64,000 nucleotides of DNA from an uncultured Candidatus Saccharibacteria bacterium (GCA_964466475.1 CAYXNB010000001.1:44635-108634); one strand, 5' to 3'; shown: positions 26,932-45,520, numbered from the stretch's first letter. Made by a program: numbers and translations. The notes: a model not told the origin generated them from the letters alone.

Positions 26932-27987
26932 TCATGCGTTTGCGAATTTTTCCACAAGGATTTGTACCCGTCCCTGAAAATGTTTTATGCTGTATATTGT
27001 GAGGCATTGTTCCCGTATTTTTTTTCTTTTTTCCGTGTCTCCTTTTTCGTTTTTGCGGACTACCTCCACGATGCCCCGCGCGATATCCGCCGGATCATCC
27101 GGATCCACAAGCGTGCCGAGTGCTCCGCCCAAAAGCGCCTCCCTGCATCCGTATCCGTCACTTGCCACAACCGGCACGCCGCAGGCGAGCGCTTCGATAA
27201 ACACAATCCCGAATCCTTCTTTTTTTGAGGGGAGCACGAATACGTCCGCGAGATTATAGAACGCCCTTCTGTCCTCGTTTTTTACATCCTCTACGCGCAC
27301 CACGCGCTTTTTCAGGTCCCTGTCTTTCAGTAAATCCTCCACCCGTTCATCCCTACCCCTACCTGCCAGACAATAAACGGCTTCCGGCACCTCCCGTATC
27401 ACGAGCGGCATGGCCCGGAGCACGCGGTCCTGCCCTTTTTCTTCTTCGGAGTTCAGGCGGGAAAGGGTGAGAATTACCTTTTTCCCCCGGAGGCCGAGCG
27501 CGGACACCAGATCTTCCCGCGGGGATTCTATAAAAAACAGGTCTTCGTCCACCGCGCTTGGGAGCATGAATATTTTATCCCGCGCTTCAGGCACCTGCGA
27601 AAGCGCGTGATTTTTCGTGTATTCGGAAATTACGATTATCTGTTCCGCCTCCCGCACGGCCCGGAGTTTCAATTTACTCTTGATTGCCATGGCTTCTATT
27701 CCATAGAGCGCGAGTGTGTACGGGATGCGAAGCGCGTTTCGCAGAAACAGCGCGATCGGAGAAAAATTAATATGCGCGGAGTGCAGCAGGTCCGGCCGCC
27801 GAAAAATCGCCTCGAAAAGAACGCGGAGCACGAAGAATCCCTTTGCCGTAATCCCCCTGCCGCGGAGTTCAATAAGGCGCACTTCGCAGCCGGAGGCACG
27901 GAGCGCCTTTAAAAAGTCTCTGTTATACTTTTCAATTCCTCCGACCGCGTTTACGTCGGCCGCGATAAAACATATTTTCATTGCCAT
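26932..27987 (-). CDS. GT4 glycosyltransferase
   Basis: MAMKICFIAADVNAVGGIEKY N-terminus, EGFGIVFIEALACGVPVV E-x7-E; track N-terminal extension discarded. Confidence 0.75.
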   Translation of the reverse strand: MAMKICFIAADVNAVGGIEKYNRDFLKALRASGCEVRLIELRGRGITAKGFFVLRVLFEAIFRRPDLLHSAHINFSPIALFLRNALRIPYTLALYGIEAMAIKSKLKLRAVREAEQIIVISEYTKNHALSQVPEARDKIFMLPSAVDEDLFFIESPREDLVSALGLRGKKVILTLSRLNSEEEKGQDRVLRAMPLVIREVPEAVYCLAGRGRDERVEDLLKDRDLKKRVVRVEDVKNEDRRAFYNLADVFVLPSKKEGFGIVFIEALACGVPVVASDGYGCREALLGGALGTLVDPDDPADIARGIVEVVRKNEKGDTEKRKKIREQCLTIYSIKHFQGRVQILVEKFANA

Positions 27988-28697
27988 GACATTCTGCCTT
28001 TTTTCACTTTCCTCTTCAAGCGAACGCTGAAGGCGAGCGTTCTTTTGATAAATTTCCATTGCGCTCCAAACCCGGTGTTCCAGCTCGATACTCCGTGGAC
28101 CCGCTTTCTGAAGTCCACCCGAAATCTTTTTACCCGATATCCTCTTTTTTTCGCGAGGAGGAGCGCGTAGAGATCGAGGGCAAAATCCTCGGGGGGATCT
28201 TCCCACGATTCAAAAAAACTTTTATGAAAGCAGTTCGGCTGGGCGTTTATGTCCCACAAAATTTTTCCGAAGAGCGCGCTCTCAAACACGCCCATTCCCG
28301 CGGTAAAAAACTTGTCCGTAAGCGGCCGGCCCCTTCTTTTCCCTTTTACGTAGGCGTTTTTCGGGTCTTCTTCCTGCTCCATGATGCGCATGGCGCGGAC
28401 CAGATCTTCGGGGTCGCACTGCAAATCCGCGTGCGTCCATATATACCACTCTCCTTTCGCGGCGCGGAGACCGGAGGCCACCGCCCTGCCGTATCCGGGA
28501 TGTTTTTCTTCAATACTCCGCGCGAAGGGAAATTTTTCCAGGATATTTTTCAGCACTTCGGCCGTTTCGTCTTTTGAATTATTGTCCACTAGGATCACCT
28601 CCGCGTCTTCCCTTCCCACGCTTTTTTCCAGACGCCCCAGGAGCGCGGGGATGTTTCCCGCCTCGTTGTAGCAGGGTATGACGATTGAATATTTCAT
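27978..28697 (-). CDS. GT2 polyprenyl-phosphate sugar synthase-like glycosyltransferase (DPM1/ArnC-like)
   Basis: MKYSIVIPCYNEAGNI, VILVDNNSKDET, short about 240 aa soluble GT2 typical of Dpm1/GtrB/ArnC; ATGA overlap with the GT-C gene upstream. Confidence 0.7.
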   Translation of the reverse strand: MKYSIVIPCYNEAGNIPALLGRLEKSVGREDAEVILVDNNSKDETAEVLKNILEKFPFARSIEEKHPGYGRAVASGLRAAKGEWYIWTHADLQCDPEDLVRAMRIMEQEEDPKNAYVKGKRRGRPLTDKFFTAGMGVFESALFGKILWDINAQPNCFHKSFFESWEDPPEDFALDLYALLLAKKRGYRVKRFRVDFRKRVHGVSSWNTGFGAQWKFIKRTLAFSVRLKRKVKKGRMSWQ

Positions 28698-30601
28698 ATG
28701 TCCTTGTTTCGGACAAGCATTTCTATCTTCGACCCGTATTCCCGGTCTTCTGTTATTTTCCATACTTTCCATCCCAGCCCTTCCAGCTCCCTCCGCAAAG
28801 CGTCGCCTTCCGCGAGATCGGAAATCATGACGAGGCGGATTCTTTTGTCTTTGTCTATCCCCCGCGCCCTGTTTCCCCCCTTTTCCACGAAATCATAAAT
28901 CGCCTTCTCCTTTTCGGTTTCTTCTATGCTCCAGCGGTATTGTATCTGGGGAAAGACACCGTAGGTTACTCCCGCGACATACACGCTTCCGGCATATCCT
29001 CCTTTTTTTGCCTCTTTCATCGCATCACGATACGGATGGGGAATCTCCGAGAGAACGTGGTATTCCCCCCTCTTTTTTATAATTTCCGAAAATGATACTT
29101 TCAGATCTTCTGCCGGAATATTCAGCCGCGGCAGATCGCGAAACGTCCGTATGTTAAAGATAATAAGGAGCGCCGCAAGCGACGCGAAGCAGCCCCTTCC
29201 CCACCTTCCTCTTCGCGCGCACTCCCGGCCGATCAGCGCGAGACCGAGTACCGCAAGAGGAGCCACGTATTCCGCCTGATATCTGCCGATCCCCCAGAGG
29301 CCCGGGTGTATGGAATAAAACATGTATGCTGAAACGGCCATAAGCGACACGATGCCTGCTCCCCGCCTCAGGTCCCTTGAAAAGAGAATCGCCCCTGCCG
29401 CCGCCGCCACAACCCACGGCAGGAAAACAGAGTTTTCTATCGCGTTCCATACGATTCCCGTGCGGATTGCGTACCAGACCCGCATGATTCCAATATCCGC
29501 GTGCGGGATGTCCAGCCCTCCCGCTTCCGGCACATACGATGCCGTTGTGCCGTAAAGCAAACTTTTTGCCGCAAATGGCACCATAAGGAGGATCGGCGCA
29601 AGGGTCATCATAATCCTCTTTATGTCCCGTTCTTTCGTCTTCCAGCAGTGCGCCGCGTACCATATACCGAGAGGGACTATTGCGCCCATTGCCGACTGCC
29701 GCATAAGCGAGGTAATCGAAAGAAGCGCGAACCACCAGAAAAATGCATTTTCTTTTTTATCTTCGTCTTTTTCCGAAAACGAAAGGAGGAGGGCGGCCCA
29801 AAAAAGGGCTGCCCAGACGGACTGCTCCACAATAACGCCCGCGTGCCAGAGTACCGGAATGGTGCCTACCGCAAACGCGGCAAGGCGCGCGCCCGTTTTT
29901 CCGGCGTACGCGCGCGCGTAGCGATACACAACGAACATGATCCCCAGAAGCGCCGCGAATGCGGCCAGCCGAAAACCGAGACTCGTCATGCCAAAGATCG
30001 TCCCTCCCAGCCAAAGCGGGACGAAACGAAGAGGCGGGTGGGTTCCTTCGCTTCCCCCGAGGAGTATGACCGCACTTCTCGCCGCAAGAAAGACGCTGCC
30101 CCACGCGACAACTCGCGTCCACGCGCTTCCTTTTTTCCCCAATTTCCAAAACATATACGCTCCGGCGGCTATCGCGATATTTACGAAAACAATCGCGTCC
30201 GCATAAGCCGCGTTTCCGAACCATGCCGGCATATATCCGGCGAGTGTCTGCACTATTTTTATACCGGGCAATTCGGATCCCCCCGCGTGCGAAAACGCGT
30301 CTCCGACCATGGGGCGAAGGAGCGCGTTCCACGAAAGCAAAACCATGCCTGCGACAAACAAGACCGCGCTCCACGCGTCCTCTTTTCGGAATATAAACGT
30401 TTTCACATATGTTCCCTTTTCCGCGTGAAACGTAAAAAAGACAAATATGCCGAGAAGAAGCACGGCAAGGAGCGCGTTCCAAACCGCACCGAGCCCTCCG
30501 GTCAGCGCGCCAAAAAGCCCGTAATTCCAAAAAAAGGCGAAGGCGAGTATTCCGAAAATATTTACGCGAACCGCGTATTCTTTTTGTCGCTCTATATTCA
30601 T
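28694..30601 (-). CDS. GT-C superfamily polytopic membrane glycosyltransferase (ArnT/PMT-like) with C-terminal soluble domain
   Basis: More than 12 hydrophobic helices over 470 aa followed by about 170-aa soluble domain; paired with DPM1-like GT2 as in ArnC/ArnT, GtrB/GtrC and Dpm1/PMT systems; start at MNIERQKEY. Confidence 0.5.
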   Translation of the reverse strand: MNIERQKEYAVRVNIFGILAFAFFWNYGLFGALTGGLGAVWNALLAVLLLGIFVFFTFHAEKGTYVKTFIFRKEDAWSAVLFVAGMVLLSWNALLRPMVGDAFSHAGGSELPGIKIVQTLAGYMPAWFGNAAYADAIVFVNIAIAAGAYMFWKLGKKGSAWTRVVAWGSVFLAARSAVILLGGSEGTHPPLRFVPLWLGGTIFGMTSLGFRLAAFAALLGIMFVVYRYARAYAGKTGARLAAFAVGTIPVLWHAGVIVEQSVWAALFWAALLLSFSEKDEDKKENAFFWWFALLSITSLMRQSAMGAIVPLGIWYAAHCWKTKERDIKRIMMTLAPILLMVPFAAKSLLYGTTASYVPEAGGLDIPHADIGIMRVWYAIRTGIVWNAIENSVFLPWVVAAAAGAILFSRDLRRGAGIVSLMAVSAYMFYSIHPGLWGIGRYQAEYVAPLAVLGLALIGRECARRGRWGRGCFASLAALLIIFNIRTFRDLPRLNIPAEDLKVSFSEIIKKRGEYHVLSEIPHPYRDAMKEAKKGGYAGSVYVAGVTYGVFPQIQYRWSIEETEKEKAIYDFVEKGGNRARGIDKDKRIRLVMISDLAEGDALRRELEGLGWKVWKITEDREYGSKIEMLVRNKDI

Positions 30602-31779
30602 GTATTGCGTTTTCGTAAAATCACGCGTCTCTGAAGCGCCAATACGTTTGGAGCCGCGCGCGTCAGGATCCCGTCTATTGCCCGCACTACCCGCAAAAGC
30701 GCGCGGGGCAGCGGAAGAGAAATCGTGTTCGCGATTACTCCTCCGGAGTTGAGGAAGAGGAGGCATTCCGCCCATTCCTGTTTTTCCATATCGAAATACG
30801 GAACGCCCTTCCTGAACTTTTCCGCGTCGTCAAACAGCAGATTCGGGATCGCGCAGTTTGCGGACCAGGGATCTTCAGGGTCGTTGCACACGGATTTCCG
30901 GTCAAATACGTCCACCTCAAACGAATACCCTTCGTGGCGCATAAGGCGGAGAATAAAGCGCATCAAAAGCGACGCGTTTATTTCCTGAACATAGAGCCGT
31001 CCTCCGGGTTTTAAAATCCTGGCCATTTCCTGAAAAAATTCAAGCGGGCGCGCAAGGTGGTGGATCATGTTGTTTGAAACCACGAAATCGAATTCCGCGT
31101 CCCGGAAGGGTGTGCGGAGCGCGTCCACGTTTTTCGCGTCGAGCCAGGGGTGGTCCGCGCAGTCGGTCAGAAGAAATGATTTCGCCCGTATGAATTCTTT
31201 TGCCACGCCCGAACCGCATCCCACCTCGATCCCGCGTTCATGTTCCCCGATCTGCGCGCCCATCCATCCATACCGCTCGGCGAGCAGGAACTTCAGGTTC
31301 GGAGACCCCGGTCCGTAAAAACGCTTTCGCGCGGCTTCCACGTCCCCTTCGTGCCGCATCCGGTTTTCCTCATGACGCGCCCGATACGGGGCTCGGAGAA
31401 CTCTCCCCATAAACGGCAAGTCGTGGAATACGATGTATTTTAAGACGATAAAATTTATCGTTGCCGCAAAGCCGGTTGCCGCGGCATAGGCGAAAAGAGG
31501 AGACCCCAATACGCGAAGAAGGACGGCGTTTACCGCCACGTTGCCTCCCAGGGTTATCGCGTAGAGCGCGATGAATTTGATTATTTCACGCCTTGTGATC
31601 TTTTTTCTGCCAAATGTCCAAAACGCGTTTAGCGCGTATGATGCCGCGATGCCGCACAGAAACGCGATTGCCTTTGCCGCCGAAGGGTCGAGTCGGGAAA
31701 AAAGAAAGGCATAGACCCCGGCGTCAATAGCGAGAACCGCGAATCCGGAAATAATGAATTTTCCCGCTTGATTTCTCAT
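30598..31779 (-). CDS. GtrA-like 4-TM domain fused to class I SAM methyltransferase
   Basis: N-terminal 120 aa four-helix GtrA-family topology (FIISGFAVLAIDAGVYAFLF...FIVLKYIVF); C-terminal IEVGCGSGVAKEF (motif I) and ILKPGGRLYVQE. Confidence 0.6.
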   Translation of the reverse strand: MRNQAGKFIISGFAVLAIDAGVYAFLFSRLDPSAAKAIAFLCGIAASYALNAFWTFGRKKITRREIIKFIALYAITLGGNVAVNAVLLRVLGSPLFAYAAATGFAATINFIVLKYIVFHDLPFMGRVLRAPYRARHEENRMRHEGDVEAARKRFYGPGSPNLKFLLAERYGWMGAQIGEHERGIEVGCGSGVAKEFIRAKSFLLTDCADHPWLDAKNVDALRTPFRDAEFDFVVSNNMIHHLARPLEFFQEMARILKPGGRLYVQEINASLLMRFILRLMRHEGYSFEVDVFDRKSVCNDPEDPWSANCAIPNLLFDDAEKFRKGVPYFDMEKQEWAECLLFLNSGGVIANTISLPLPRALLRVVRAIDGILTRAAPNVLALQRRVILRKRNT

Positions 31780-31785
31780 GAGATG

Positions 31786-32601
31786 CTACGCCATTGTATC
31801 GAAAAATTTTTTCCATGCCGCATCCGCTCCCGTTTTCACCTCCGCTTCGCCAAAAACGCGGTACCGATATTCCCGCTCTTCGTATGCGTAGAGGTCCTCG
31901 GGCTTTCCCCACCCTACATAAAGATCTACGTCAAATATCACACTCTTTTTCCCCATCGCCCTGTAGAAGGCGGGCATGGAGTCCACGTAGAATTCGTTAT
32001 TTACCCTCGCCTCCGCCCGCACCATGGCGTCATAGCCCGCCAAAAAATTTTTGGCGCTTTTGAAATAAAAAGAAGCCACAATGGCGTGATCGTTATACGG
32101 ATTATCCGACACCGGAATTTTTACCGATACGTCTTCAATTGTTTTTTCATCTTTTTCCAGGCGCAGCCAACCCCACGCTTCCGGCTTTTCCCTCAAAAGT
32201 TCGTTTTTGGTAAAGGTCCAGATTACGGCATCCGCTTCGCTTTTTAGGGCGACGAACCTGTCTTCGTCGTACAAAAAACTATTGTCGCACGCGGCGATAA
32301 ATACTTCTTCTTCCGGAGGGAGGGTGCGGACCGCGCACGCGGAGGTTCCGGCCTGACCAACCGGATTTTCTTCCACCATCACTTCGGCATTCGGGACCTC
32401 GCGCCTTAAAAACTCGCCCAGCCGGAATTCCTCCTCGTGTTCCTTCCGTACCACGAATATGATTTTTTCGCTTTTCGGCAGACGCTCAACTGCCCGCAGA
32501 ATCATGGGCTTGCCCGAAACCGGAATAAGAGGCTTCGGCAAAAGATAGCCGCGGTCGGCAAACCTTTTGCCCTTCCCCGCCATGGGTACGATAGTTATCA
32601 T
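31786..32601 (-). CDS. Sugar/polyol-phosphate nucleotidyltransferase (NTP_transferase fold), paralog A
   Basis: IVPMAGKGKRF...YLLPKPLIPVSGKPMI N-terminal nucleotide-binding signature; substrate not assignable. Confidence 0.55.
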   Translation of the reverse strand: MITIVPMAGKGKRFADRGYLLPKPLIPVSGKPMILRAVERLPKSEKIIFVVRKEHEEEFRLGEFLRREVPNAEVMVEENPVGQAGTSACAVRTLPPEEEVFIAACDNSFLYDEDRFVALKSEADAVIWTFTKNELLREKPEAWGWLRLEKDEKTIEDVSVKIPVSDNPYNDHAIVASFYFKSAKNFLAGYDAMVRAEARVNNEFYVDSMPAFYRAMGKKSVIFDVDLYVGWGKPEDLYAYEEREYRYRVFGEAEVKTGADAAWKKFFDTMA

Positions 32602-32661: not shown

Positions 32662-33471
32662 CTACCCCCGAATCCAGGCGGGGATTGCTACCACGTTTTC
32701 CCCTCGCGCTTTTTGGAAAACCTCGAGAGTCTCCTCTTTTACCACATAAAGCTCGTATCCCAATCGCGTCAATAAGCCAATCGCTTCCTTTATTTTATGC
32801 TCAAACTCCTCCACCGAATTCGTATATTCAAATAAAATGATCGGCTTGTGTTTTTCTATTATTTCTTTTCCGCTCAGTATCACTCTTGCGTCCGATCCGT
32901 CCGTGTCTATTTTTATAAAATCTAATTTTTTGAACGTTTTGCAAAATCTGTCGAGGGTAACGGTTTGCACACTTATTTTTTCCGTAAGTTCATAATTTTC
33001 CGGATATAAACTCGCGCTTTTGTTATGCATATTTTCCCCGGGGGAGTACAGGGTCATTGTTTTTTCTTCATTGTATATAGCAATTTCGTAGCAAGTAACA
33101 TTTTTTAGTTTGTTTAACAGCAAATTTTTTTTCAATCGCTTCATGAACTCTGGATGTGGTTCTATCGCGTGTACACACTCGGAATATTTTGCCATGGGCA
33201 AAGTATATATCCCCATATTCGCTCCGATATCCAAGCATACCGAACTTTTTGTGAGGAAATACTCAAGTATCCATATAACATCGTTTTCGTACCCTCTATC
33301 CCAGTATAATCTCCAATCCATTAAACGGCTCGTATCGCAGTGGATGAGCATTTTTTTGTAGGGGATGATGCCGACAAATTGGTTTTTCCCTCCCGGCCGG
33401 TCAAATAGCCGTATTATCCTGTGTCTTCCTTTGAATTTGACGTTCCGTAAAAAATCGCGTAGTCGGTTCAT
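32662..33471 (-). CDS. FkbM-family methyltransferase
   Basis: CLDIGANMGIYTLPMAKYSECVHAIEPHPEF matches Methyltransf_21/FkbM motif; gene is markedly AT-richer than neighbours. Confidence 0.65.
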   Translation of the reverse strand: MNRLRDFLRNVKFKGRHRIIRLFDRPGGKNQFVGIIPYKKMLIHCDTSRLMDWRLYWDRGYENDVIWILEYFLTKSSVCLDIGANMGIYTLPMAKYSECVHAIEPHPEFMKRLKKNLLLNKLKNVTCYEIAIYNEEKTMTLYSPGENMHNKSASLYPENYELTEKISVQTVTLDRFCKTFKKLDFIKIDTDGSDARVILSGKEIIEKHKPIILFEYTNSVEEFEHKIKEAIGLLTRLGYELYVVKEETLEVFQKARGENVVAIPAWIRG

Positions 33472-34376
33472 GTTTTATGTTTTGCCATTTTAAGATAATT
33501 TTCCCAATAGCAAAATATTTGGTCCATCTCGCTCTTCGAAAGAGGCGAGGGTCTGTCTTTTATGTCCGCGGGGCAGTTCTCCGGAACTTCTCTCTTTTTT
33601 TTGTTTTGTTCCAAAAAATTACACACTATACGCGTCCAAAACTCGTACTCCCGCAGGTCTTCGGGCGTGCCCCACTGGAGAAAATGGGATATCTTGTCGT
33701 ACACGCCGACACGGAGTCCGTCCTCGACGAGCAGGTTGTATACCAAACTGACGTAATATTCCCCTCCGAAACCCCTGTCTTGCCTTACGCATTCTTCAAA
33801 ATATTTTTTTACGTACGCCCCCTTCCTGAAATAATACGTGCCCGGAGAATGCATGGACTTCATTTTATCCTCTTCAAACGAATGTTTTTCCCTGATTTCC
33901 CTCAAAAGGCCTTGCGCGCCAACGCGCACGCTCGCGTACAGATTTTTTTCGCGGAGGAGGTGAGGATGGAATCCGGTATAGACCGGAACGCAGCCGTCAA
34001 AACCTTCCTCTGTCATTTTGTGGCAAAAGTCTCCATAATCCCATTTCATAAAAAAATCGCAATAGTTCACGATCACCGGCTCCTCGTCTTCGATGTACCT
34101 GCTTGCCGCGAGTGCCGCGGGGACCGGTCCGGGCACGATCGTTTCCACGACCGCGATCTTCGCTTTCGGTTTCTTCTTCATAATTACTTCTTCCATATTC
34201 GTTTTCTCCAGATGCTCTTTTCTGCATACGCAGACCACGTCTTCTTCTCCCGGAAACAGATCAAACACCCATTCGATCATGGGTTTCCCGTCCACGGGGA
34301 TAAGGGGCTTGGGGAGGAGGTATCCGGCATTTTTGAACCGCGCCCCCTCTCCCGCCATTGGTATAACTATTTTCAT
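33468..34376 (-). CDS. Sugar/polyol-phosphate nucleotidyltransferase (NTP_transferase fold), paralog B
   Basis: IVIPMAGEGARF...YLLPKPLIPVDGKPMI; 302 aa with C-terminal extension. Confidence 0.55.
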   Translation of the reverse strand: MKIVIPMAGEGARFKNAGYLLPKPLIPVDGKPMIEWVFDLFPGEEDVVCVCRKEHLEKTNMEEVIMKKKPKAKIAVVETIVPGPVPAALAASRYIEDEEPVIVNYCDFFMKWDYGDFCHKMTEEGFDGCVPVYTGFHPHLLREKNLYASVRVGAQGLLREIREKHSFEEDKMKSMHSPGTYYFRKGAYVKKYFEECVRQDRGFGGEYYVSLVYNLLVEDGLRVGVYDKISHFLQWGTPEDLREYEFWTRIVCNFLEQNKKKREVPENCPADIKDRPSPLSKSEMDQIFCYWENYLKMAKHKT

Positions 34377-35371
34377 ACTCCTTTCATAAGGCGGACCCTC
34401 GCCTTTTCGCTTTCCATTTCACGGAGCCGGCGCCGCTCTTCCTCGGGAAGCCCCTGCCATGACCACCCCCTCCGCGCGATCTCTTCCATAATGTAGAGCC
34501 AGGCAACCAAAGTTTCTTCTTTTGCGAGAGATTCCGCCTCCCCCCCACGGTAATATATCTCCCCGTTTTCTTCCACCGCCATATCGCCGCAAAACACTTC
34601 CTGATCCGGAAAAAGGACCGCTTTTTGAAATTTCTTCATGTATTCCGGATTTTTTCGTGCCATCTCCCGAATATATTCCGTGCCGCTTTTCCACCCGCCT
34701 TCCGGCGCCTCTGCCATCCGGCGGACCACCCTCACCTCCGGATACCCGATCTCTCCGCCCTCGCGGAGCGCCTCATGCAGAGCGTCATGAAGACCCAGGG
34801 CGCGAGATGCGCTTTCTGCCGTTGTAATTACTCCGTGATTTTCCAGTATCCATACGCCGATATTTTCTCTTTGCCTTTTCTTTTTCTCTTCCCGTATCGC
34901 TTCCGCGAGCGGAATTCCTGGCGTACAGTACGGAATCCATGCCCAGGGCGCGCCGATCTTTTTTCCCGCGTGTTTTATCGCATCCCTTCCCTCTTTCGCG
35001 CAGGCAAAGACGTTTCCATAGACAGAATGTGTGTGGATCACGAAATTATCGAGAAGGGCATGAAACCCGGTTTCTATGGAGGGCCGAAGCGACTTTCCTC
35101 CGGAGTCCACGATCAGTTTTCCGAACGCCTCCTCTTCTCTCATTTCCTGCCACAGAGTTCCCTCGTAATAGGCGCGCGACTCTTTTTCCCGAAGCATCAC
35201 GATACCGACATTTTCTTGCACGTCTTCCAAACGATATCCCGATGCCTTGATCGCCATTTTTCCCTCTCCCTTTACGGAAATGTTCCCTCCCCCGCCCTGC
35301 ACAAAATCGGGACGCCCCCCCAGGACGCGCGCGATCCGCTCGATCTCTTTTGTGCCTTCCTTTATATCCAT
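34373..35371 (-). CDS. Class II aldolase/adducin-domain protein (fuculose-phosphate aldolase / ribulose-5-P 4-epimerase fold) with C-terminal extension
   Basis: GGGGNISVK N-terminal motif and RPSIETGFHALLDNFVIHTHSVYGNVFAC (metal-binding His cluster); start at MDIKEGTKEI. Confidence 0.6.
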   Translation of the reverse strand: MDIKEGTKEIERIARVLGGRPDFVQGGGGNISVKGEGKMAIKASGYRLEDVQENVGIVMLREKESRAYYEGTLWQEMREEEAFGKLIVDSGGKSLRPSIETGFHALLDNFVIHTHSVYGNVFACAKEGRDAIKHAGKKIGAPWAWIPYCTPGIPLAEAIREEKKKRQRENIGVWILENHGVITTAESASRALGLHDALHEALREGGEIGYPEVRVVRRMAEAPEGGWKSGTEYIREMARKNPEYMKKFQKAVLFPDQEVFCGDMAVEENGEIYYRGGEAESLAKEETLVAWLYIMEEIARRGWSWQGLPEEERRRLREMESEKARVRLMKGV

Positions 35372-37482
35372 GATTCTTGCGATTTCATCCGCCCAAATAT
35401 GACATAGACGAGAAGAATCTGAATCACGCCTTCGTGCCCATTTTTCCATTCCGGGTCTTCCCGCGCTGCGTCCCAAAGCTCCGGAAGGATCCGGTAGGCG
35501 ATTTTTTCTATCGCTTCTTTCGATATATCTCCCCGAATCTCCCCCCGCTGCCTTTCCTCAAAGAGTTCGTGCTCCACGCCCATTCCCTCTTCCGCAAGCG
35601 CGACAAGGAGCGGGTCCATACCCACGCTGTTCGCGCATTCCCAGCCGATGATTACGGAACGTTCTCCATCCCCGCTTTTGGGCGCGATTATCAGGTCCGC
35701 GTATTTTTTCTGCGCCTGTATGAATATCCGATCCTTTTCCCGTTTTTTTATCTGCTCAAGCACGCCCTCCTTCGCCTTGCCGCGCTCCCGCATGTCCCGC
35801 TCCATTTTCCAGCGCAAACGCAGGTCTTCGTCCGTATCCATAAACACCCTCATGTCGAGACGCCTTCTCATGCTTTCCAAAAACAAAGAATGCAGGCCTT
35901 CAAAAACAACAATCCGCTTGGACTCCAGTTTTTCCGGCAGAGTAAATCTGCCCGAGGAGTGGTCGTACCTTCTTCGTTCTACCGGACGCCCCTCCTTTAA
36001 CTTCGCCACGGATTCCACTTCTCCGTGAAGGTTGTTCGCGCGGGGATCGAGGTGCGTGAAGGCTTTCCACGCCTCGTGCCCCCGCTCCCATTTGTGCGCG
36101 TCATCCCCTTCTATGATCGCGGTGTTTTTTTCGCCGAACACGGCGCGCAAAAAACGCGCGACCGTGCTTTTACCGGAACCGGAATCACCCGAAATTCCCA
36201 CGAGATAGGGCTCGTAGTATATTTTGTATTTTGTATTGCTCTCCACCCCTTTTTTATAAATCCATATCACATTTACGAGAAGCGCGGTCTGCAGGAGAGT
36301 AAAGATGATCCGGAGAATTTTTTCCGCACTCCATCCGGCTCGCGCAAGAACCGCGTACGCGCGGGGAATGACTCCCGCGGACTCCGGCGACAGGGGGAAG
36401 AACGCTCCGGGAATATCCGAGTTCGGTACAAGGAGGAAGAAGAGGATGTAGAGTGCTTGCAGAGCCGCGAAAGCGTATCGGGGCGCGTTTTCTTGCTTTA
36501 TGTAAAAATACAGAAGGAATGGCAGTACCCAGTAGTACCAGCCGGGCATGGGCGCGATGAGCGCGGTCAGTATCCCGAAACTAAATCCGAGAAACATAAG
36601 GAATATGTCGCGATTATACCGCCGAAACGCCAAACTTCTCACGAAGAGCGCGACATAGACCGCGGGCACGATGTAGATCACCGCCCCCGCTCCAAGGACT
36701 ATTTTCAGGTCAAAAATCTTCTCTCCCTCTTCTCCTCCCGTTATCACGCGGCGAAATTCCGCCGAAGAAAGGAAGGGCGCGTTTGCCAGAATCCATGTTC
36801 CGAATGTCAGGCAAAAAAACGCTCCCGCCCTCCGGAGCCCGCCCGCGCCGATCCGAAATACGTACACAAGAGTAAAAGGGACGAGCGCCAAAATATGAAT
36901 TTTCGCGGCAATGGCGATACCAAGGAACACTCCCGCCTCTTTCCATTTTTCCTTGCAGAGGAAGTACAGAGCGACGAAGAGGAACATGATGGGAACGGAA
37001 TCCAGCTGTCCGTGCACGTAGTTGATATAAAAAAGGACCGGAGAGCACCAATAATAGATGAGAACTTTTTTCTCCTTTCCCTTCAGCCATCGCGCGAGAA
37101 TAAGCAAAATAACAATATCCGCGAAAAGGATCGGCAAGCGGTAGAGAAAAAGATCGAGATGAGAGATTCCTTCCGCCGCCCGCATGATCGGAGCAAGCAA
37201 TATGCCCGGAAGCCCGACAAACCAGAGCATGATCGCGCCATACGGAAAGTGGGCCGCTCCGCCCGCGCTCGCGAAATACTCATAAGGATTCTGGAACCCG
37301 CTTTGCCCGTAGTAGTTCAGAAAGGGAATAAAAAGCCGCGTTAAAAATTCCGACCCGAAGAGCGCGGCCGCAGCGAGTTTTATTCCGAGCGCCGCCAAAA
37401 AAACAGGCGATTTCAAAATACCCACCTTTGATCTGCCGTCTTTTTCTCTTAATGCGCCGCCTGCTTTTCGTATCCAGTTCAT
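35362..37482 (-). CDS. Fusion protein: N-terminal polytopic membrane domain (GT-C/DUF2029-like, about 420 aa) + C-terminal uridine-kinase/phosphoribulokinase-family P-loop domain
   Basis: C-terminus YLVGISGDSGSGKSTVARFL (Walker A), YDHSSGRF, IVVFEGLH, DMRVFMDTDEDLRLRWKMERDMRERGK match Udk/PRK family point by point; N-terminus more than 10 TM helices. Confidence 0.6.
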   Translation of the reverse strand: MNWIRKAGGALREKDGRSKVGILKSPVFLAALGIKLAAAALFGSEFLTRLFIPFLNYYGQSGFQNPYEYFASAGGAAHFPYGAIMLWFVGLPGILLAPIMRAAEGISHLDLFLYRLPILFADIVILLILARWLKGKEKKVLIYYWCSPVLFYINYVHGQLDSVPIMFLFVALYFLCKEKWKEAGVFLGIAIAAKIHILALVPFTLVYVFRIGAGGLRRAGAFFCLTFGTWILANAPFLSSAEFRRVITGGEEGEKIFDLKIVLGAGAVIYIVPAVYVALFVRSLAFRRYNRDIFLMFLGFSFGILTALIAPMPGWYYWVLPFLLYFYIKQENAPRYAFAALQALYILFFLLVPNSDIPGAFFPLSPESAGVIPRAYAVLARAGWSAEKILRIIFTLLQTALLVNVIWIYKKGVESNTKYKIYYEPYLVGISGDSGSGKSTVARFLRAVFGEKNTAIIEGDDAHKWERGHEAWKAFTHLDPRANNLHGEVESVAKLKEGRPVERRRYDHSSGRFTLPEKLESKRIVVFEGLHSLFLESMRRRLDMRVFMDTDEDLRLRWKMERDMRERGKAKEGVLEQIKKREKDRIFIQAQKKYADLIIAPKSGDGERSVIIGWECANSVGMDPLLVALAEEGMGVEHELFEERQRGEIRGDISKEAIEKIAYRILPELWDAAREDPEWKNGHEGVIQILLVYVIFGRMKSQESWI

Positions 37483-38162
37483 TGCGTTTCTTCCATTACC
37501 ACGGAGGGGATTCCGGCTAGTTCCGCGCCTTTCGCGTCCTTTGTTTCCGCGTCTCCTATCATGATCACGTCTTCGGCGCGCATGCCCAACTTGCGAAGCG
37601 CGAGGGCGAATATCGGCCTGTCCGGCTTTTCCGCTCCCGCCTCTTCGGAAGACGCCATCGCGCGCAGAAGTCCGTCCAGGCCCAGGCGCTGTATTTTTTT
37701 CATCTGAATACGCGCGGTCATGTCCGTTACGATAACTACGGGCTTTCCGGCTTTTTTACACCACAAAAGAAATTCTTGCGCGCCCTTTCTTGCCCGCATG
37801 GCGCTCAAAAAATTCTTCCAATACGCTTCTTCCATTGCGAGAACTCTCCCCGTCCGGAGCGCGCCTTCTTCCTTTTCCACGTACCGCTGAAAGTATAATA
37901 CCCTTGAGTGGCACGCGGCCTGCGCCGGAATATGTTTTTTCACCTCGGCCCGCGCCTCCCGGTACGCCTCTTCAAATTTTTGGAAGGATATGTTTTTTCC
38001 TTTTCGCGCCTCTTTCCATGCCGCGCGGAGTGCTTTTTTGTGGCACCTCTCGTAGGAGTAGAGCGTGCCGTCCAGATCAAGGAGCACCCCCTTCGCCCCT
38101 TCCACGAGGCGCCTTACCTCCCTGAACGACGAGGCGCGGGTCTGCCGCATATTATGTTTCAT
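37479..38162 (-). CDS. HAD-superfamily hydrolase
   Basis: Motif I VLLDLDGTL, motif IV IMIGDAETKD; start at MKHNMRQ with ATGA overlap; track N-terminal extension discarded. Confidence 0.65.
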   Translation of the reverse strand: MKHNMRQTRASSFREVRRLVEGAKGVLLDLDGTLYSYERCHKKALRAAWKEARKGKNISFQKFEEAYREARAEVKKHIPAQAACHSRVLYFQRYVEKEEGALRTGRVLAMEEAYWKNFLSAMRARKGAQEFLLWCKKAGKPVVIVTDMTARIQMKKIQRLGLDGLLRAMASSEEAGAEKPDRPIFALALRKLGMRAEDVIMIGDAETKDAKGAELAGIPSVVMEETQ

Positions 38163-38758
38163 ATTTCTTTTTCCCATTCGGCAACCCACTCCTTTCCCGC
38201 CATGACCGCGTCCAATTCCACGCCCAGGTCCCGAAGGGCTTTTCTGTACGGAACAATGTCTTTCCCCCGTCCCCATCGGTCCGGGGACACAAGACAGATT
38301 TTCCATTCCGGCAATATACCTACCACTTCTTCATTCAACGGCAGAGACGAGATGGTGTCAATCCAGAGCCAGTCCGCCCTTCCCTTGTATCGCTCCGCGA
38401 GATGGTAACACTCTTCTTCGCTCAGCCGCACCGCGATCTCGCGCGCACCCTCGCGAGTCGCGCGATACAAGTACGGAAACTCCACGTCAAGCAAAAAATA
38501 ATTATTTGGCGGAATGCCATACTTCTCGGCGAGATTCCTGCACCCCTCTTCGATTCCTGCTTCTTTTATATTGAATATGATGAAGGCGTGTTTATATTCG
38601 CGAAGATAATCATCAAGGTACTCTCCGCGCCCGGGATCGTGGTTTAGATAGAGGCGATCGCTCCCCGGATCGTGACGCACGTCAACCTCTACCCCGTATC
38701 GCGCGGGGATTCTTTGCAGTTCATTCCTGGTATTTACCCGATGGATGATAATAATCAT
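38159..38758 (-). CDS. Small glycerophosphodiester-phosphodiesterase-like (GP-PDE/PLC-like TIM barrel) protein
   Basis: IIIIHRVNTRNELQ...VEVDVRHDPGSDRLYLNHD follows the GP-PDE H-R...E...E-x-D-x-R...HD catalytic pattern; only 199 aa. Confidence 0.4.
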   Translation of the reverse strand: MIIIIHRVNTRNELQRIPARYGVEVDVRHDPGSDRLYLNHDPGRGEYLDDYLREYKHAFIIFNIKEAGIEEGCRNLAEKYGIPPNNYFLLDVEFPYLYRATREGAREIAVRLSEEECYHLAERYKGRADWLWIDTISSLPLNEEVVGILPEWKICLVSPDRWGRGKDIVPYRKALRDLGVELDAVMAGKEWVAEWEKEI

Positions 38759-41293: not shown

Positions 41294-41897
41294 CGTCGTA
41301 TATTTTCTTTAATTCGATGACCCGCACATCATTCGGCCAATAACGGAGCGTCTTGTCCGAGAATTCCAAAATTTTTTTCCCGTCCTCTTTTACCCTGTAG
41401 AGGTCAAGCATTCCGTAGAGCGCGGGCGGAAGTTTCGGGGCGATATCCAAGACTTTTTTGTAGTACGCTTCCGATTTTTCAAAGTATCCATCTTTTCGGA
41501 ATTGCAGCCACAGGAAATGGTGCAGACGCGCGAGGTTGACTAGGTGCAGAACGTCTTCCTGGTCGGAATACCCTTCGATAAAAGTCACGAGATCCATAGA
41601 TACCTCTTCCGGCTGGATACCTTTCGATACCAGCGTGATAATGTCTCCCTGAATGAACTTTACTATCTCGTCATCGGATATCGGGGCGTTAAAATCCAAG
41701 ACGCGCCTGAAATTCTCTTTAAAGGCGGGTGCGCTCTGCACGCTTCGCGCCCCTTGGAGCGCCTCGATGTATCGCCTCGCCTTTTGGAGCGGCAGGTACG
41801 CCCCGAAGTAGAGTGAGAGGACGCAGAGAATGATCCCGCATGCACCTGCCGTGTATTTAAACGCGTTTTTCATGATGTTCCTTTCCATACGCAACAT
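41277..41897 (-). CDS. Hypothetical membrane-anchored protein
   Basis: Single N-terminal TM (GACGIILCVLSLYFGAY) then soluble domain; no motif. Confidence 0.35.
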   Translation of the reverse strand: MLRMERNIMKNAFKYTAGACGIILCVLSLYFGAYLPLQKARRYIEALQGARSVQSAPAFKENFRRVLDFNAPISDDEIVKFIQGDIITLVSKGIQPEEVSMDLVTFIEGYSDQEDVLHLVNLARLHHFLWLQFRKDGYFEKSEAYYKKVLDIAPKLPPALYGMLDLYRVKEDGKKILEFSDKTLRYWPNDVRVIELKKIYDDEKGV

Positions 41898-45479: not shown

Positions 45480-45520
45480 ATGCCCTATTCTGCCAGGTTT
45501 TTTGTTTATCCTCAAGAAAT

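What the first reader, a model, noticed from the sequence alone, without database searches (positions are those of the whole stretch)
35362..37482. Unusual fusion: polytopic GT-C-like membrane domain + uridine-kinase/PRK-family P-loop kinase
The C-terminal 280 aa match Udk/PRK block by block (GISGDSGSGKST, YDHSSGRF, VFEGLH, DTDEDLRLRW-ERD-RERG). They are fused to a 420-aa, >10-TM N-terminal domain of the glycosyltransferase-C/DUF2029 type. A nucleoside/sugar kinase tethered to a membrane transferase inside a glycan cluster suggests phosphorylation of a lipid-linked or membrane-proximal sugar, or local nucleotide regeneration. I know of no characterised precedent.
Basis: partly seen in the sequence, partly recalled or inferred. 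Interest (0 to 1): 0.65.

Follow-up and report, generated by a model that had tools for sequence, protein, structure and literature searches.

The report
Membrane glycosyltransferase-fold protein fused to phosphoribulokinase-like kinase
A real and widespread but unstudied membrane protein joins a glycosyltransferase-type membrane domain to a phosphoribulokinase-like kinase, and it marks a conserved gene set, found in bacteria, tiny archaea, plasmids and giant viruses, that probably builds an unknown activated pentose-derived sugar for surface glycans.

Summary

The fusion is conserved in at least 483 protein clusters and 176 species. It marks a cassette: GDPD-like protein, HAD phosphatase closest to ribulose-1,5-bisphosphate 5-phosphatase, the fusion, a class II aldolase-family enzyme, and two nucleotidyltransferase-like proteins. 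A GtrB-like GT2 and GtrA usually accompany it. Pairwise gene fusions link nearly all of these parts.

Giant-virus contigs carry the soluble enzymes without the GT-C domain, beside a GT61 glycosyltransferase.

Best reading, inferred: the kinase makes a pentulose 1,5-bisphosphate, probably RuBP, as the first step toward a nucleotide-activated sugar. That sugar is loaded onto polyprenyl phosphate, flipped, and used outside the cell.

The GT-C domain keeps donor-site residues but lacks the canonical catalytic acid of loop 1, so its catalytic role is open.

I found no characterised member. The product sugar is unknown; a ketopentofuranose is a speculative candidate.

The parts
35362..37482 (-). Fusion gene, 706 aa: N-terminal GT-C-fold membrane domain plus C-terminal PRK-like kinase
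   Evidence: ORF. Pfam. Full-length AlphaFold model with pLDDT 93.6 and pTM 0.92. More than 290 full-length homologs.
36223..37482 (-). GT-C-fold domain (aa 1-420), 12 predicted TM segments. Invariant residues are K35, D122, W145, S147, P148, Y155, D161, K194, P202, P311, G314, W315 and P321. No conserved acidic residue in external loop 1 (aa 45-107).
35365..36222 (-). Cytoplasmic PRK-like kinase domain (aa 421-706). P-loop at aa 432-439. D460, H463, R467, Y506, H508, K559, R562, D563 and R567 are invariant.
   Evidence: Sequence matches. Foldseek TM 0.79 to 9qko_A over 299 columns. Residue mapping. Conservation.
38159..38758 (-). Conserved ~200-aa cassette protein ('UNK199'), probably a PI-PLC/GDPD-like phosphodiesterase. 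Invariant motifs are HR.N, G.E.D.R and HD.
   Evidence: Found in 63 of 87 bacterial/archaeal loci and 33 of 41 viral-type loci. No Pfam or NCBIfam hit. Plasmid homologs at 37-39% identity are annotated 'PI-specific phospholipase C/glycerophosphodiester phosphodiesterase family'. Fused to the aldolase in L025.
37479..38150 (-). HAD-IA phosphatase, 223 aa as called in the twin contig (the ORF extends to 38306). Closest curated family is ribulose-1,5-bisphosphate 5-phosphatase.
   Evidence: NF053830 at E 2.3e-57 and 194 bits, below the cutoff of 330; next best family 107 bits. Six homologs from other lineages give the same top hit. Present in 64 of 87 loci. Gene call.
34373..35371 (-). Class II aldolase/epimerase-family protein, 332 aa. 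Its start overlaps the fusion's stop by 10 nt. The metal-site motifs are readable: PSIE, IHTHS, ENHG.
   Evidence: PF00596 at E 2e-21. Closest to the aldolase domain of bifunctional rhamnulose-1-P aldolase/SDR. Present in 78 of 87 loci. Fused to the C-terminus of the fusion protein in 1058-1060-aa variants.
33468..34376 (-). Nucleotidyltransferase-like protein 1 ('NTP302')
   Evidence: PF12804. Sugar-1-P nucleotidyltransferase families and PDB entry 4evw. Present in 76 of 87 loci.
32662..33471 (-). FkbM-type methyltransferase, inserted in the cassette in this lineage and not part of the conserved core
   Evidence: PF05050 at E 4e-21. No homolog in the other loci, apart from a Methyltransf_21 gene in L003.
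31786..32601 (-). Nucleotidyltransferase-like protein 2 ('NTP271')
   Evidence: Hits in 76 of 87 loci, a few of which are cross-hits to gene 1. Fused to NTP302 in Flavobacteriaceae, plasmids and giant viruses, and to GT2 in six loci.
30598..31779 (-). GtrA-family membrane protein (N-terminal ~120 aa) fused to a SAM methyltransferase
   Evidence: PF04138 and methyltransferase families. GtrA found in 33 of 87 loci. GtrA is fused to the N-terminus of the GT-C/PRK protein in ~840-aa variants.
28694..30775 (-). Second, separate GT-C-type membrane protein (PMT_2/ArnT-like, 693 aa); candidate acceptor-specific transferase
   Evidence: PF13231. Homologs in 10-11 loci. 40 of 61 long loci hold some additional large polytopic protein.
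27978..28772 (-). GtrB-like GT2 (putative polyprenyl-phosphate glycosyltransferase)
   Evidence: PF00535. 55% identical to the cassette GT2 of Zeaxanthinibacter. GT2 found in 56 of 87 loci.

Best explanation
Anatomy. The gene encodes a bifunctional inner-membrane protein. Its cytoplasmic C-terminal domain is an active ATP-dependent sugar-phosphate kinase of the phosphoribulokinase type. Its N-terminal 12-TM domain has the GT-C fold and keeps the outer-leaflet residues that in Gpi14 and PimE hold the polyprenyl-phosphate-sugar donor.

Cassette. The protein is the signature component of a conserved, horizontally mobile gene set.

Inferred pathway.
1. The kinase phosphorylates C1 of a pentulose 5-phosphate, most likely Ru5P, giving RuBP.
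2. The adjacent HAD enzyme removes the 5-phosphate. Net effect: the phosphate moves from C5 to C1, which frees O5.
3. The class II aldolase-family enzyme and the GDPD-like enzyme remodel the ketose 1-phosphate.
4. The two nucleotidyltransferase-like proteins make a nucleotide-activated product.
5. In bacteria and DPANN archaea, a GtrB-like GT2 loads it onto polyprenyl phosphate and GtrA flips it. GT-C-type proteins, the fused domain and/or a variable second one, then use it outside the membrane. In giant viruses a soluble GT61 uses the nucleotide sugar directly.

Why fuse. The fusion tethers the first committed cytoplasmic step to the membrane machinery that consumes the lipid-linked end product. 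This would serve co-localisation or coupling.

Shown: anatomy, fold, conserved residues, gene linkage, fusions, distribution. Inferred: substrate, every reaction step, the product, and the purpose of the fusion.
For: Kinase type. PDB phmmer gives 1e-36 to cyanobacterial, plant and archaeal PRKs against 1e-19 to Udk. NCBIfam PRK07429 scores 184 bits against 102 for udk. Foldseek aligns ~300 columns to full-length PRKs with TM 0.72-0.79.

Kinase residues. The equivalents of CrPRK R64, Y103, H105, R159, D160 and R164 are R467, Y506, H508, R562, D563 and R567. These, with D460, H463, K559 and the P-loop, are conserved in at least 90% of 104 representatives.

Gene linkage across 87 loci from at least 8 phylum-level groups. 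Aldolase in 78, NTP gene 1 in 76, NTP gene 2 in about 70, HAD in 64, UNK199 in 63, GT2 in 56, GtrA in 33.

Fusions between parts. GT-C+PRK+aldolase, GtrA+GT-C+PRK, aldolase+UNK199, NTP1+NTP2, and NTP2+GT2.

HAD. All 7 tested have RuBP 5-phosphatase (NF053830) as top family at 136-194 bits. That enzyme is specific for RuBP and yields Ru1P (PMC9700705).

Giant-virus loci. The kinase without GT-C sits with aldolase, UNK199, the NTP pair and GT61 in 33-36 of 41 loci. This shows the soluble enzymes form a self-standing unit feeding a Leloir glycosyltransferase.

Plasmids. The cassette is a compact operon on E. coli, Azospirillum (beside O-antigen genes) and Hirschia plasmids.

Against: No biochemical data exist for any member.

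The kinase is below the NCBIfam PRK cutoff (184 against 236), and CrPRK R67 is replaced by E470.

The HAD is far below the equivalog cutoff (194 against 330). The aldolase resembles Ru1P aldolase only weakly (23.9 bits against 300). So RuBP and Ru1P as intermediates rest on best-hit logic.

A ketose 1-phosphate is not an anomeric phosphate. A normal sugar-1-P nucleotidyltransferase step therefore needs an extra conversion that I can only postulate.

HAD is absent near 23 of 87 bacterial loci and from most viral loci. Some of that absence may be due to contig ends.

The GT-C domain has no conserved acidic residue anywhere in external loop 1 (highest D/E fraction 0.49). All characterised relatives have their catalytic base there.

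Two-thirds of long loci carry another, variable polytopic protein. The fused domain may therefore not be the transferase.

Minimal loci (L001, L006) lack GT2 and GtrA nearby.
Confidence: 0.5

Rival explanations
1. The kinase part of the main model stands, but the fused GT-C-fold domain is not a glycosyltransferase. Like PIG-U in GPI transamidase, it would be a catalytically dead GT-C fold. It would bind the polyprenyl-phosphate(-sugar) carrier and act as anchor, scaffold or sensor. For example, it could couple kinase activity (precursor supply) to carrier-lipid availability, or partner GtrA in handling the lipid-linked donor. A separate, variable polytopic protein would be the acceptor-specific transferase.
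Against: D161, K194, D122, W145, P148 and D356 are invariant or nearly so on or near the outer face. Two of them match donor-contacting residues of active enzymes. Such conservation is more typical of an active site. One-third of long loci, and the minimal three-gene loci, show no other candidate transferase. A different base, D161 or D356, could serve an unusual donor.
Confidence: 0.3
2. One reading: the kinase is a uridine/cytidine kinase that regenerates nucleotides locally for the glycan machinery.
For: Pfam PF00485 covers both activities. JGI and PGAP name members 'uridine kinase'. The core fold also matches Udk structures over ~190 columns.
Against: Udk matches are 17 orders of magnitude weaker than PRK matches. 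The udk equivalog models score 102 bits against cutoffs of 180-220. The extra ~100-aa C-terminal PRK sheet domain is present. H463 and R467, the PRK phosphate-binding positions, are invariant, and the THLDPRANN motif matches PRK TALDPRANN. From memory, Udk carries NYDHPxAxD at that position. Nothing in the cassette uses a nucleoside.
Confidence: 0.04
3. One reading: the kinase phosphorylates a lipid-linked or membrane-proximal sugar, or the polyprenol carrier itself, at the cytoplasmic face of the GT-C domain.
For: The covalent tether to a lipid-carrier-binding fold is conserved in hundreds of clusters. The confident fixed interdomain geometry (pTM 0.92) would suit a membrane-surface substrate.
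Against: The same kinase subfamily (about 40% identity, same motifs) is fused to an unrelated soluble domain in giant-virus contigs. Those contigs have no GtrA, GT2 or GT-C but keep the aldolase, GDPD-like and NTP genes. The residues that bind the phosphate of a small sugar phosphate are all kept. The neighbouring HAD resembles a phosphatase of a soluble bisphosphate.
Confidence: 0.07
4. The kinase, HAD and aldolase form a catabolic route like the haloarchaeal non-carboxylating pentose bisphosphate pathway (Ru5P to RuBP to Ru1P to DHAP plus glycolaldehyde). Their place in a glycan cluster would be incidental.
For: The HAD's best family is the RuBP 5-phosphatase of that pathway, and the aldolase weakly hits Ru1P aldolase. 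In haloarchaea the two genes also form an operon (PMC9700705).
Against: The three genes are tied by gene fusions to nucleotidyltransferases, GT2, GtrA and a GT-C fold. They travel with GT61 in viruses and with O-antigen genes on the Azospirillum plasmid. Spending ATP to reach DHAP plus glycolaldehyde from Ru5P has no catabolic advantage in organisms that have a pentose phosphate pathway. The aldolase is closer to RhaD-type domains than to the haloarchaeal enzyme.
Confidence: 0.05

Closest known systems
Dimeric (cyanobacterial, plant, archaeal) phosphoribulokinase, e.g. Synechococcus PRK 6hzk, Methanospirillum PRK 5b3f, 'cyanobacteria-specific PRK' 9qko
   Same: Fold over ~300 residues, including the C-terminal sheet domain. 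The P-loop is kept. All residues reported to bind Ru5P or catalyse are kept (R64, Y103, H105, R159, D160, R164 equivalents). About 36% identity over the 175-residue core.
   Different: Fused behind a 12-TM domain. Below the curated PRK cutoff. R67 equivalent is Glu. No regulatory cysteines. Found in non-autotrophs inside glycan clusters, with no RuBisCO or Calvin-cycle link in the locus. Activity untested.
GT-C glycosyltransferases of the PIG-M/ALG3/ALG6/PimE group, which use polyprenyl-phosphate-monosaccharide donors
   Different: No conserved Asp or Glu in external loop 1, where the catalytic base of all these enzymes sits. An invariant Lys in TM1 (K35) and Asp in TM2 (D122). A cytoplasmic kinase is fused at the C-terminus.
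PIG-U / GAB1, the non-catalytic GT-C-fold subunit of GPI transamidase
   Different: PIG-U works inside a transamidase complex in eukaryotes. Here the donor-site Lys and acid are strictly conserved, and the genomic context is a Gtr-type system.
GtrA/GtrB/GtrC-type three-component glycosylation systems (also CsbB/GtcA/YfhO and ArnC/ArnT)
   Same: A GT2 polyprenyl-phosphate glycosyltransferase, a GtrA-family protein and GT-C-type membrane proteins are encoded together. Conserved A and B parts sit beside a variable large polytopic protein. The system is mobile and placed outside or beside O-antigen clusters.
   Different: Known systems take a housekeeping UDP-sugar. This one brings its own six-enzyme precursor pathway, and one of its GT-C folds is fused to the pathway's kinase.
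Haloarchaeal non-carboxylating pentose bisphosphate pathway (RuBP 5-phosphatase plus Ru1P aldolase; Sato et al. 2022, PMC9700705)
   Same: A HAD phosphatase of the same closest family sits next to a class II aldolase-family gene, with RuBP as the implied intermediate.
   Different: There RuBP comes from nucleosides through R1P kinase and R15P isomerase, and the pathway is catabolic. Here a PRK-type kinase is the implied source, and the genes are welded to nucleotidyltransferases and glycosyltransferases.
NDP-heptose pathway (GmhA, HddA/HldE kinase, GmhB HAD phosphatase, HddC/HldC nucleotidyltransferase)
   Same: Same logic: sugar monophosphate to bisphosphate by a kinase, removal of the distal phosphate by a HAD enzyme, then nucleotidyl transfer.
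   Different: Unrelated kinase family. The substrate is an aldose with an anomeric phosphate. There is no aldolase-family or GDPD-like step and no membrane fusion.

Membership tests
Pfam PF00485 PRK/uridine kinase family | Score above the Pfam gathering threshold, with a Walker A P-loop | tested here: met
   136.4 bits against a cutoff of 22, aa 428-599. GDSGSGKST is present and invariant.
Phosphoribulokinase (EC 2.7.1.19), dimeric type | Residues binding the Ru5P phosphate and catalytic residues (CrPRK R64, Y103, H105, R159, D160, R164) | tested here: met
   They map to R467, Y506, H508, R562, D563 and R567. Mapping used the 6hzk alignment and the residue list in bioRxiv 10.1101/422709. All are conserved in at least 90% of 104 representatives. 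The R67 equivalent is E470; the paper says R67 is not strictly conserved.
Phosphoribulokinase (EC 2.7.1.19), dimeric type | Full two-part fold, including the C-terminal sheet domain absent from Udk | tested here: met
   Foldseek aligns 299-306 columns with TM(target) 0.72-0.79 to 9qko_A and 5b3f. Udk aligns over only ~190 columns.
Phosphoribulokinase (EC 2.7.1.19), dimeric type | Curated family score (NCBIfam NF005655/PRK07429 cutoff 236 bits) | tested here: not met
   183.7 bits, matching only profile positions 7-184 of 326.
Phosphoribulokinase (EC 2.7.1.19), dimeric type | ATP-dependent conversion of Ru5P to RuBP | not testable with these tools
   Needs an enzyme assay.
Uridine kinase (Udk) | Curated equivalog score (NF004018 cutoff 180; TIGR00235 cutoff 220) | tested here: not met
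   102.7 and 101.5 bits. PDB Udk hits are at 1e-19, against 1e-36 for PRK.
GT-C glycosyltransferase superfamily | GT-C membrane fold (conserved TM1-7 module with a long external loop 1) | tested here: met
GT-C glycosyltransferase superfamily | Catalytic Asp/Glu in external loop 1 or at the tip of JM1 (Gpi14 D39, ALG6 D69, PimE D58) | tested here: not met
   No column between residues 30 and 115 has more than 49% D+E in 104 representatives, and none reaches 50% in 86 close homologs. This is a sequence-level test; no 3D superposition was available.
GT-C glycosyltransferase superfamily | Polyprenyl-phosphate-sugar donor site (Lys at the start of TM6 and an acidic residue in loop 2) | tested here: inconclusive
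   Invariant K194 and D161 align with the K of HFKIYP and the E of GNAES in GPI-MT-I. These correspond to Gpi14 K173 and E140 and parallel PimE K195 and D160. However, the HMM alignment is weak (E 0.03).
Pfam GT87 (DUF2029), ALG3, Alg6_Alg8 | Score above the gathering threshold | tested here: not met
   Window protein: ALG3 17.8 bits against 23.6, and Alg6_Alg8 10.9 against 25. Some homologs pass: P0040 at 29.1 and P0166 GT87 at 26.5.
Gtr-type three-component glycosylation system | Co-encoded GtrA-family protein, GT2 polyprenyl-phosphate glycosyltransferase and GT-C-type protein | tested here: met
   Window: GtrA domain at 30598-31779, GT2 at 27978-28772, GT-C folds at 35362-37482 and 28694-30775. 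GT2 is in 56 of 87 loci and GtrA in 33 of 87. GtrA and GT2 are fused to cassette proteins.
Non-carboxylating pentose bisphosphate pathway | RuBP 5-phosphatase (NF053830, cutoff 330) and Ru1P aldolase (NF053831, cutoff 300) | tested here: not met
   The HAD scores 136-194 bits. It is the top hit in 7 of 7 tested but below the cutoff. The aldolase scores 23.9 bits.

The most novel reading that the evidence does not exclude
The cassette is a previously unrecognised nucleotide-sugar pathway in which a phosphoribulokinase homolog and ribulose-1,5-bisphosphate serve glycan synthesis rather than carbon fixation.

Its purpose would be to move the phosphate of a ketopentose from O5 to O1 so that the sugar can close a furanose ring. 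The steps would be:
- PRK plus the 5-phosphatase shift the phosphate from O5 to O1.
- The class II epimerase-type enzyme sets the configuration.
- The PLC/GDPD-like enzyme shifts the phosphate to the anomeric O2 through a cyclic phosphate.
- The nucleotidyltransferases make an NDP-ketopentofuranose such as NDP-xylulofuranose.

This would be the missing route to the xylulofuranose residues known in chlorovirus N-glycans and in several bacterial polysaccharides. According to the 2020 E. coli O-antigen review (PMC7685785), no activation genes are known for them.

In bacteria, the fused GT-C-fold domain would couple this pathway physically to the lipid-carrier stage.
Probability: 0.2. Interest if true: 0.9.

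Novelty: new variant of a known kind. Interest (0 to 1): 0.72.

Why it matters
If the model is right, phosphoribulokinase and RuBP, textbook markers of CO2 fixation, have a second life in building cell-surface glycans in heterotrophs, symbionts and viruses. PRK hits in metagenomes, including CPR, DPANN and giant-virus genomes, would then need re-reading, because some are glycan genes rather than Calvin-cycle genes.

The cassette defines an uncharacterised sugar-activation pathway. It is shared by ultrasmall bacteria and archaea, Bacteroidota, Proteobacteria (including an E. coli plasmid) and giant viruses. It is mobile and likely changes surface antigens.

It offers a concrete, testable candidate for the unknown route by which ketopentofuranoses such as xylulofuranose are activated.

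The fusion also gives a rare case of a GT-C fold wired to a cytoplasmic enzyme. That is useful for asking how precursor supply and lipid-carrier use are coordinated across the membrane.

Cultured carriers make experiments possible now: Zeaxanthinibacter enoshimensis DSM 18435, Geojedonia litorea, Azospirillum brasilense MTCC4039, Hirschia baltica ATCC 49814 and E. coli S1-CAM-01-A.

Tried and rejected
1. Frameshift or two genes. Rejected: one ORF, two independent assemblies, hundreds of co-linear homologs.

2. HAD fused to the fusion protein in L009. This was my own script artefact. An in-frame stop separates the two genes, so the claim is withdrawn.

3. Stand-alone versions of the membrane domain. 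Apart from fragments, only P0154 (423 aa) might be one. Not pursued.

4. Kinase-only search. It returned mostly fragments. P0135 proved to be a divergent or truncated bacterial fusion.

5. Family assignment of UNK199. Pfam, NCBIfam and a PDB profile search gave nothing significant (GDPD at E 0.19-1.6). Only PGAP names on plasmid homologs and the HR.N / E.D / HD motifs support a PLC/GDPD-like fold.

6. N-terminal ~190-aa domain of the giant-virus kinase. No PDB sequence match, and Pfam searches were exhausted.

7. Naming viral isolates that carry the cassette. The top 120 hits are all unnamed metagenomic sequences. I could not check chloroviruses MT325 or TN603.

8. Link to E. coli O95/O97, which contain xylulofuranose. 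The cassette is in only 2 of 5426 complete E. coli genomes, both on plasmids. Distant DNA search finds nothing else. No protein-level search of E. coli genomes was available, so this is neither support nor a clean refutation.

9. Literature. Searches combining PRK, GtrA, GT-C, aldolase, Patescibacteria and giant virus found no description. Jaffe et al. 2019 (PMC6389311) describe only soluble PRKs of Gottesmanbacteria and Peregrinibacteria linked to RuBisCO.

10. Similarity among the extra large membrane proteins of different clusters. None by BLASTP.

11. Whether the kinase active site faces the membrane domain.

Full report
1. OBSERVATION

Window 35362..37482 on the minus strand is one ATG-started ORF of 706 codons without interruption. 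The same protein, identical in all 706 residues, is encoded on two separately assembled public contigs.

Pfam places aa 428-599 in PF00485 at E 1.4e-39. The N-terminal 420 residues are strongly hydrophobic. AlphaFold helices, hydropathy and the positive-inside rule give 12 transmembrane segments with both termini in the cytoplasm, so the kinase is cytoplasmic.

The fusion is not an accident of this genome. A search with the whole protein returned more than 290 co-linear homologs at 39-51% identity. A profile of the membrane domain alone found 483 representative clusters at E<=1e-30, and nearly all complete ones are 660-750 aa.

2. THE KINASE IS A PHOSPHORIBULOKINASE-TYPE ENZYME

Against solved structures, the best sequence matches are cyanobacterial, plant and archaeal PRKs at 1e-36 to 1e-27. 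Uridine kinases follow at 1e-19 or weaker, and the proteobacterial octameric PRK 1a7j is barely detected. NCBIfam gives 184 bits for the PRK07429 model and 102 bits for udk, both below their cutoffs.

The full-length AlphaFold model (pLDDT 93.6, pTM 0.92) superposes on complete PRK chains over about 300 columns. TM on target is 0.79 for the 'cyanobacteria-specific PRK' 9qko and 0.72 for Methanospirillum PRK. Udk chains cover only about 190 columns. The C-terminal 100 residues, which Pfam does not cover, are therefore the PRK sheet domain.

The gap-free alignment to Synechococcus PRK can be combined with the residue list for Chlamydomonas PRK (bioRxiv 10.1101/422709). R64, Y103 and H105 hold the phosphate of Ru5P, and R159, D160 and R164 sit in the catalytic loop. 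Their equivalents here are R467, Y506, H508, R562, D563 and R567. These residues, with D460, H463, K559 and the P-loop, are conserved in at least 90% of 104 representative family members. R67, which the paper says is not strictly conserved, is E470.

The kinase is therefore very probably active and binds a phosphorylated sugar in the way PRK binds Ru5P. It is not a curated-threshold PRK, and its activity is untested.

3. THE MEMBRANE DOMAIN HAS THE GT-C FOLD BUT LACKS THE USUAL CATALYTIC ACID

A weak profile alignment to GPI-MT-I pairs three features:
- invariant D161 (motif HGQLD) with the Glu of GNAES
- invariant K194 with the Lys of HFKIYP
- W145/P148 with WLxNP

In the Candida glabrata enzyme, that Glu (E140) and Lys (K173) contact the mannose of Dol-P-Man (PMC12653191). 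In PimE, K195 and D160 are needed for activity (PMC12041525). The donor site of a polyprenyl-phosphate-sugar enzyme therefore seems to be kept on the outer face.

The catalytic base of these enzymes lies in external loop 1: Gpi14 D39, ALG6 D69, PimE D58 at the tip of JM1. In non-catalytic PIG-U it is replaced. In this family, no column between residues 30 and 115 is acidic in more than 49% of sequences. The only conserved acids are D122 in TM2, D161, D292 on the cytoplasmic side, and D356 in the last outer loop.

Whether the domain transfers sugar with a different base, or only binds the lipid-linked substrate, cannot be decided here.

4. THE GENE IS THE HALLMARK OF A CONSERVED CASSETTE

A scan of one genome per species found relatives in 176 species:
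- many Patescibacteria
- Bacteroidota, including the cultured Zeaxanthinibacter enoshimensis and Geojedonia litorea
- Rickettsiales
- other Alphaproteobacteria
- Melainabacteria
- Bdellovibrionales
- a spirochete symbiont
- DPANN Woesearchaeota

In 87 loci, homologs of the window's neighbours recur as follows:
- class II aldolase-family gene: 78, usually 0-100 bp downstream
- first nucleotidyltransferase-like gene: 76
- second nucleotidyltransferase-like gene: about 70
- HAD phosphatase: 64, usually directly upstream
- unannotated ~200-aa protein: 63
- GtrB-like GT2: 56
- GtrA: 33

Gene fusions tie the parts together:
- GT-C+PRK+aldolase, about 1059 aa
- GtrA+GT-C+PRK, about 840 aa
- aldolase plus the 200-aa protein
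- the two nucleotidyltransferase-like proteins with each other
- the second nucleotidyltransferase-like protein with GT2

In the window, all parts lie on the minus strand between 27978 and 38758. An FkbM methyltransferase is inserted, and GtrA is fused to another methyltransferase.

5. CLUES TO CHEMISTRY

All 7 HAD proteins tested, from different lineages, have as best curated family the haloarchaeal ribulose-1,5-bisphosphate 5-phosphatase. They score 136-194 bits against a cutoff of 330, and the next family scores 98-122 bits. That enzyme is specific for RuBP and yields ribulose 1-phosphate (PMC9700705).

The aldolase-family protein keeps the metal-site motifs, read directly from the sequence. 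It is closest to the ketose-1-phosphate aldolase domain of RhaD-type bifunctional enzymes.

The 200-aa protein has no Pfam or NCBIfam match. Its invariant HR.N, G.E.D.R and HD motifs look GDPD/PI-PLC-like, and PGAP names its plasmid homologs that way.

Both nucleotidyltransferase-like proteins resemble sugar-1-phosphate nucleotidyltransferases and the uncharacterised Vibrio protein 4evw.

6. THE SOLUBLE PART STANDS ALONE IN GIANT VIRUSES, AND THE WHOLE SET IS MOBILE

The same kinase subfamily, about 40% identical with the same motifs, occurs fused to an unrelated soluble ~190-aa domain. It is found on contigs that also carry PCNA, eIF4E and DVNP, and on 38 IMG/VR contigs, many of them labelled giant-virus MAGs.

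In those 41 loci the following co-occur, with no GtrA, GT2 or GT-C:
- nucleotidyltransferase pair: 36
- aldolase: 33
- 200-aa protein: 33
- GT61 Leloir glycosyltransferase: 34
- HAD: 15

This shows that the kinase works with the soluble enzymes independently of the membrane domain. It also argues that the product is a nucleotide-activated sugar.

The complete bacterial set forms a compact operon on three plasmids:
- an IS26-flanked region of an E. coli IncR plasmid
- an Azospirillum brasilense plasmid, beside O-antigen-type ABC transporter, GDP-fucose and GT1 genes
- a Hirschia baltica plasmid

Only 2 of 5426 complete E. coli genomes have it.

7. MOST LIKELY MECHANISM (INFERRED)

The PRK-like domain phosphorylates a pentulose 5-phosphate, most simply Ru5P, at C1. 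The HAD enzyme removes the 5-phosphate.

A chemical reason for this detour is that a ketopentose 5-phosphate cannot form a furanose ring, whereas the 1-phosphate can. Sato et al. observed cyclised Ru1P.

The aldolase-family enzyme could epimerise the sugar by retro-aldol/aldol chemistry, as L-ribulose-5-phosphate 4-epimerase does. The GDPD-like enzyme could move the phosphate through a cyclic phosphodiester, as PI-PLC does. The nucleotidyltransferases would then activate the sugar.

GT2 would load it on polyprenyl phosphate, GtrA would flip it, and GT-C-type proteins would use it outside. This matches the logic of GtrABC-type systems and of the NDP-heptose pathway (kinase, HAD phosphatase, nucleotidyltransferase). 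Both comparisons rest on my own knowledge.

The fusion places the first committed step at the membrane machinery. Whether that serves channeling, stoichiometry or regulation is unknown.

8. OPEN POINT ON THE MEMBRANE DOMAIN

40 of 61 long loci contain another large polytopic protein, and these are unrelated between clusters. This resembles the variable, acceptor-specific GtrC. The window has a separate PMT_2-type GT-C.

Together with the missing loop-1 acid, this leaves a real possibility, which I put near 0.3, that the fused domain is a carrier-lipid-binding partner rather than the transferase.

9. WHAT THE SUGAR MIGHT BE

Xylulofuranose, sometimes methylated, occurs in N-glycans of chloroviruses MT325 and TN603 (PMC9614988). 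It also occurs in a few bacterial polysaccharides (PMC8707391). The E. coli O-antigen review states that no genes for an activated Xulf are known (PMC7685785).

A pathway that starts from Ru5P, frees O5 and contains an epimerase-type enzyme fits such a product. So does the presence of a methyltransferase in the window's cassette.

This is a lead only. I could not test whether Xulf-producing organisms carry the cassette, and the E. coli DNA searches gave no link.

10. NOVELTY AND VERDICT

The components belong to known kinds: PRK/Udk fold, GT-C fold, Gtr-type system, HAD, class II aldolase, nucleotidyltransferases.

What is new is the architecture and the cassette as a unit, a PRK homolog recruited to glycan synthesis, and the spread from CPR bacteria to giant viruses. 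I found no description of these in the literature. Database names are generic and contradictory.

I rate it a new variant of a known kind, with a substantial chance that the precursor pathway is new chemistry. Its functional guesses are replaced by a better-supported but still untested model.

Noticed in passing
L089-L129 (IMG/VR and ENA contigs); e.g. L089 6001-11389: Giant-virus-type contigs carrying PCNA, eIF4E and DVNP, many named GVMAG. They hold a soluble version of the cassette: an unknown ~190-aa domain fused to the PRK-like kinase, a class II aldolase, the GDPD-like protein, a fused nucleotidyltransferase pair and a GT61 glycosyltransferase. These PRK hits in giant viruses are probably glycan genes, not carbon-fixation genes.
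   Followed up: partly
L130 (E. coli plasmid NZ_CP145712.1 6022-14984), L131 (Azospirillum brasilense plasmid NZ_CP032350.1 42469-49853), Hirschia baltica plasmid NC_012983.1 ~65993-68636: The complete cassette is a compact operon on plasmids of cultured bacteria. In E. coli it lies next to IS26 on an IncR plasmid and is present in only 2 of 5426 complete genomes. In Azospirillum it lies beside O-antigen ABC-transporter and GDP-fucose genes.
   Followed up: partly
window 36223-37482 (aa K35 and D122): An invariant Lys in TM1 and an invariant Asp in TM2 lie within the membrane-spanning helices. They may form a buried charge pair. Its role (structure, phosphate binding, transport-like function) is unexplained.
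   Followed up: no
window 39546-40349 and 38764-39549: The UDP-glucose/GDP-mannose dehydrogenase-family ORF is only 267 aa. It lacks the C-terminal UDP-binding domain and part of the N-terminal domain. An HD-domain protein of unknown role follows it directly. This may be a truncated or degenerate gene, or a split arrangement.
   Followed up: no
window 30598-31779: A GtrA-family membrane domain is fused to a class I SAM methyltransferase. Together with the FkbM methyltransferase at 32662-33471 inside the cassette, this suggests the transferred sugar is methylated in this organism.
   Followed up: no
window 41857-43191, 43224-45524, 45588-49082: Two Wzy_C/O-antigen-ligase-family membrane proteins, one with a TPR tail, sit next to a 1164-aa protein that has a peptidoglycan-binding domain, upstream of the cassette. 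These are possible acceptor-side machinery for the glycan.
   Followed up: no
window ~21800-52600: Essentially all long ORFs with family matches lie on the minus strand, and GC skew is negative across the whole window (cumulative -3.5). This fits a long co-directional block on one replichore.
   Followed up: no
L009 6290-9145: In the Kazan-group MAG, the HAD gene and the fusion gene are in the same reading frame, separated by a single stop codon. A naive ORF extension makes them look like a 952-aa fusion; they are not fused.
   Followed up: yes
window 38159-38758 and alignment A4: The ~200-aa cassette protein forms a well-conserved family (29 invariant positions in 25 sequences). No Pfam-A or NCBIfam model detects it. 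It would merit a family model of its own.
   Followed up: partly
L001 8001-11939, L006 8001-12003: Some Bacteroidota loci hold only the fusion, the aldolase and one nucleotidyltransferase-like gene, with a NUDIX gene upstream in L001 (NUDIX also occurs in L003). HAD, GtrA and GT2 are not nearby. This may be a minimal form of the system, or the other genes lie elsewhere in the genome.
   Followed up: no
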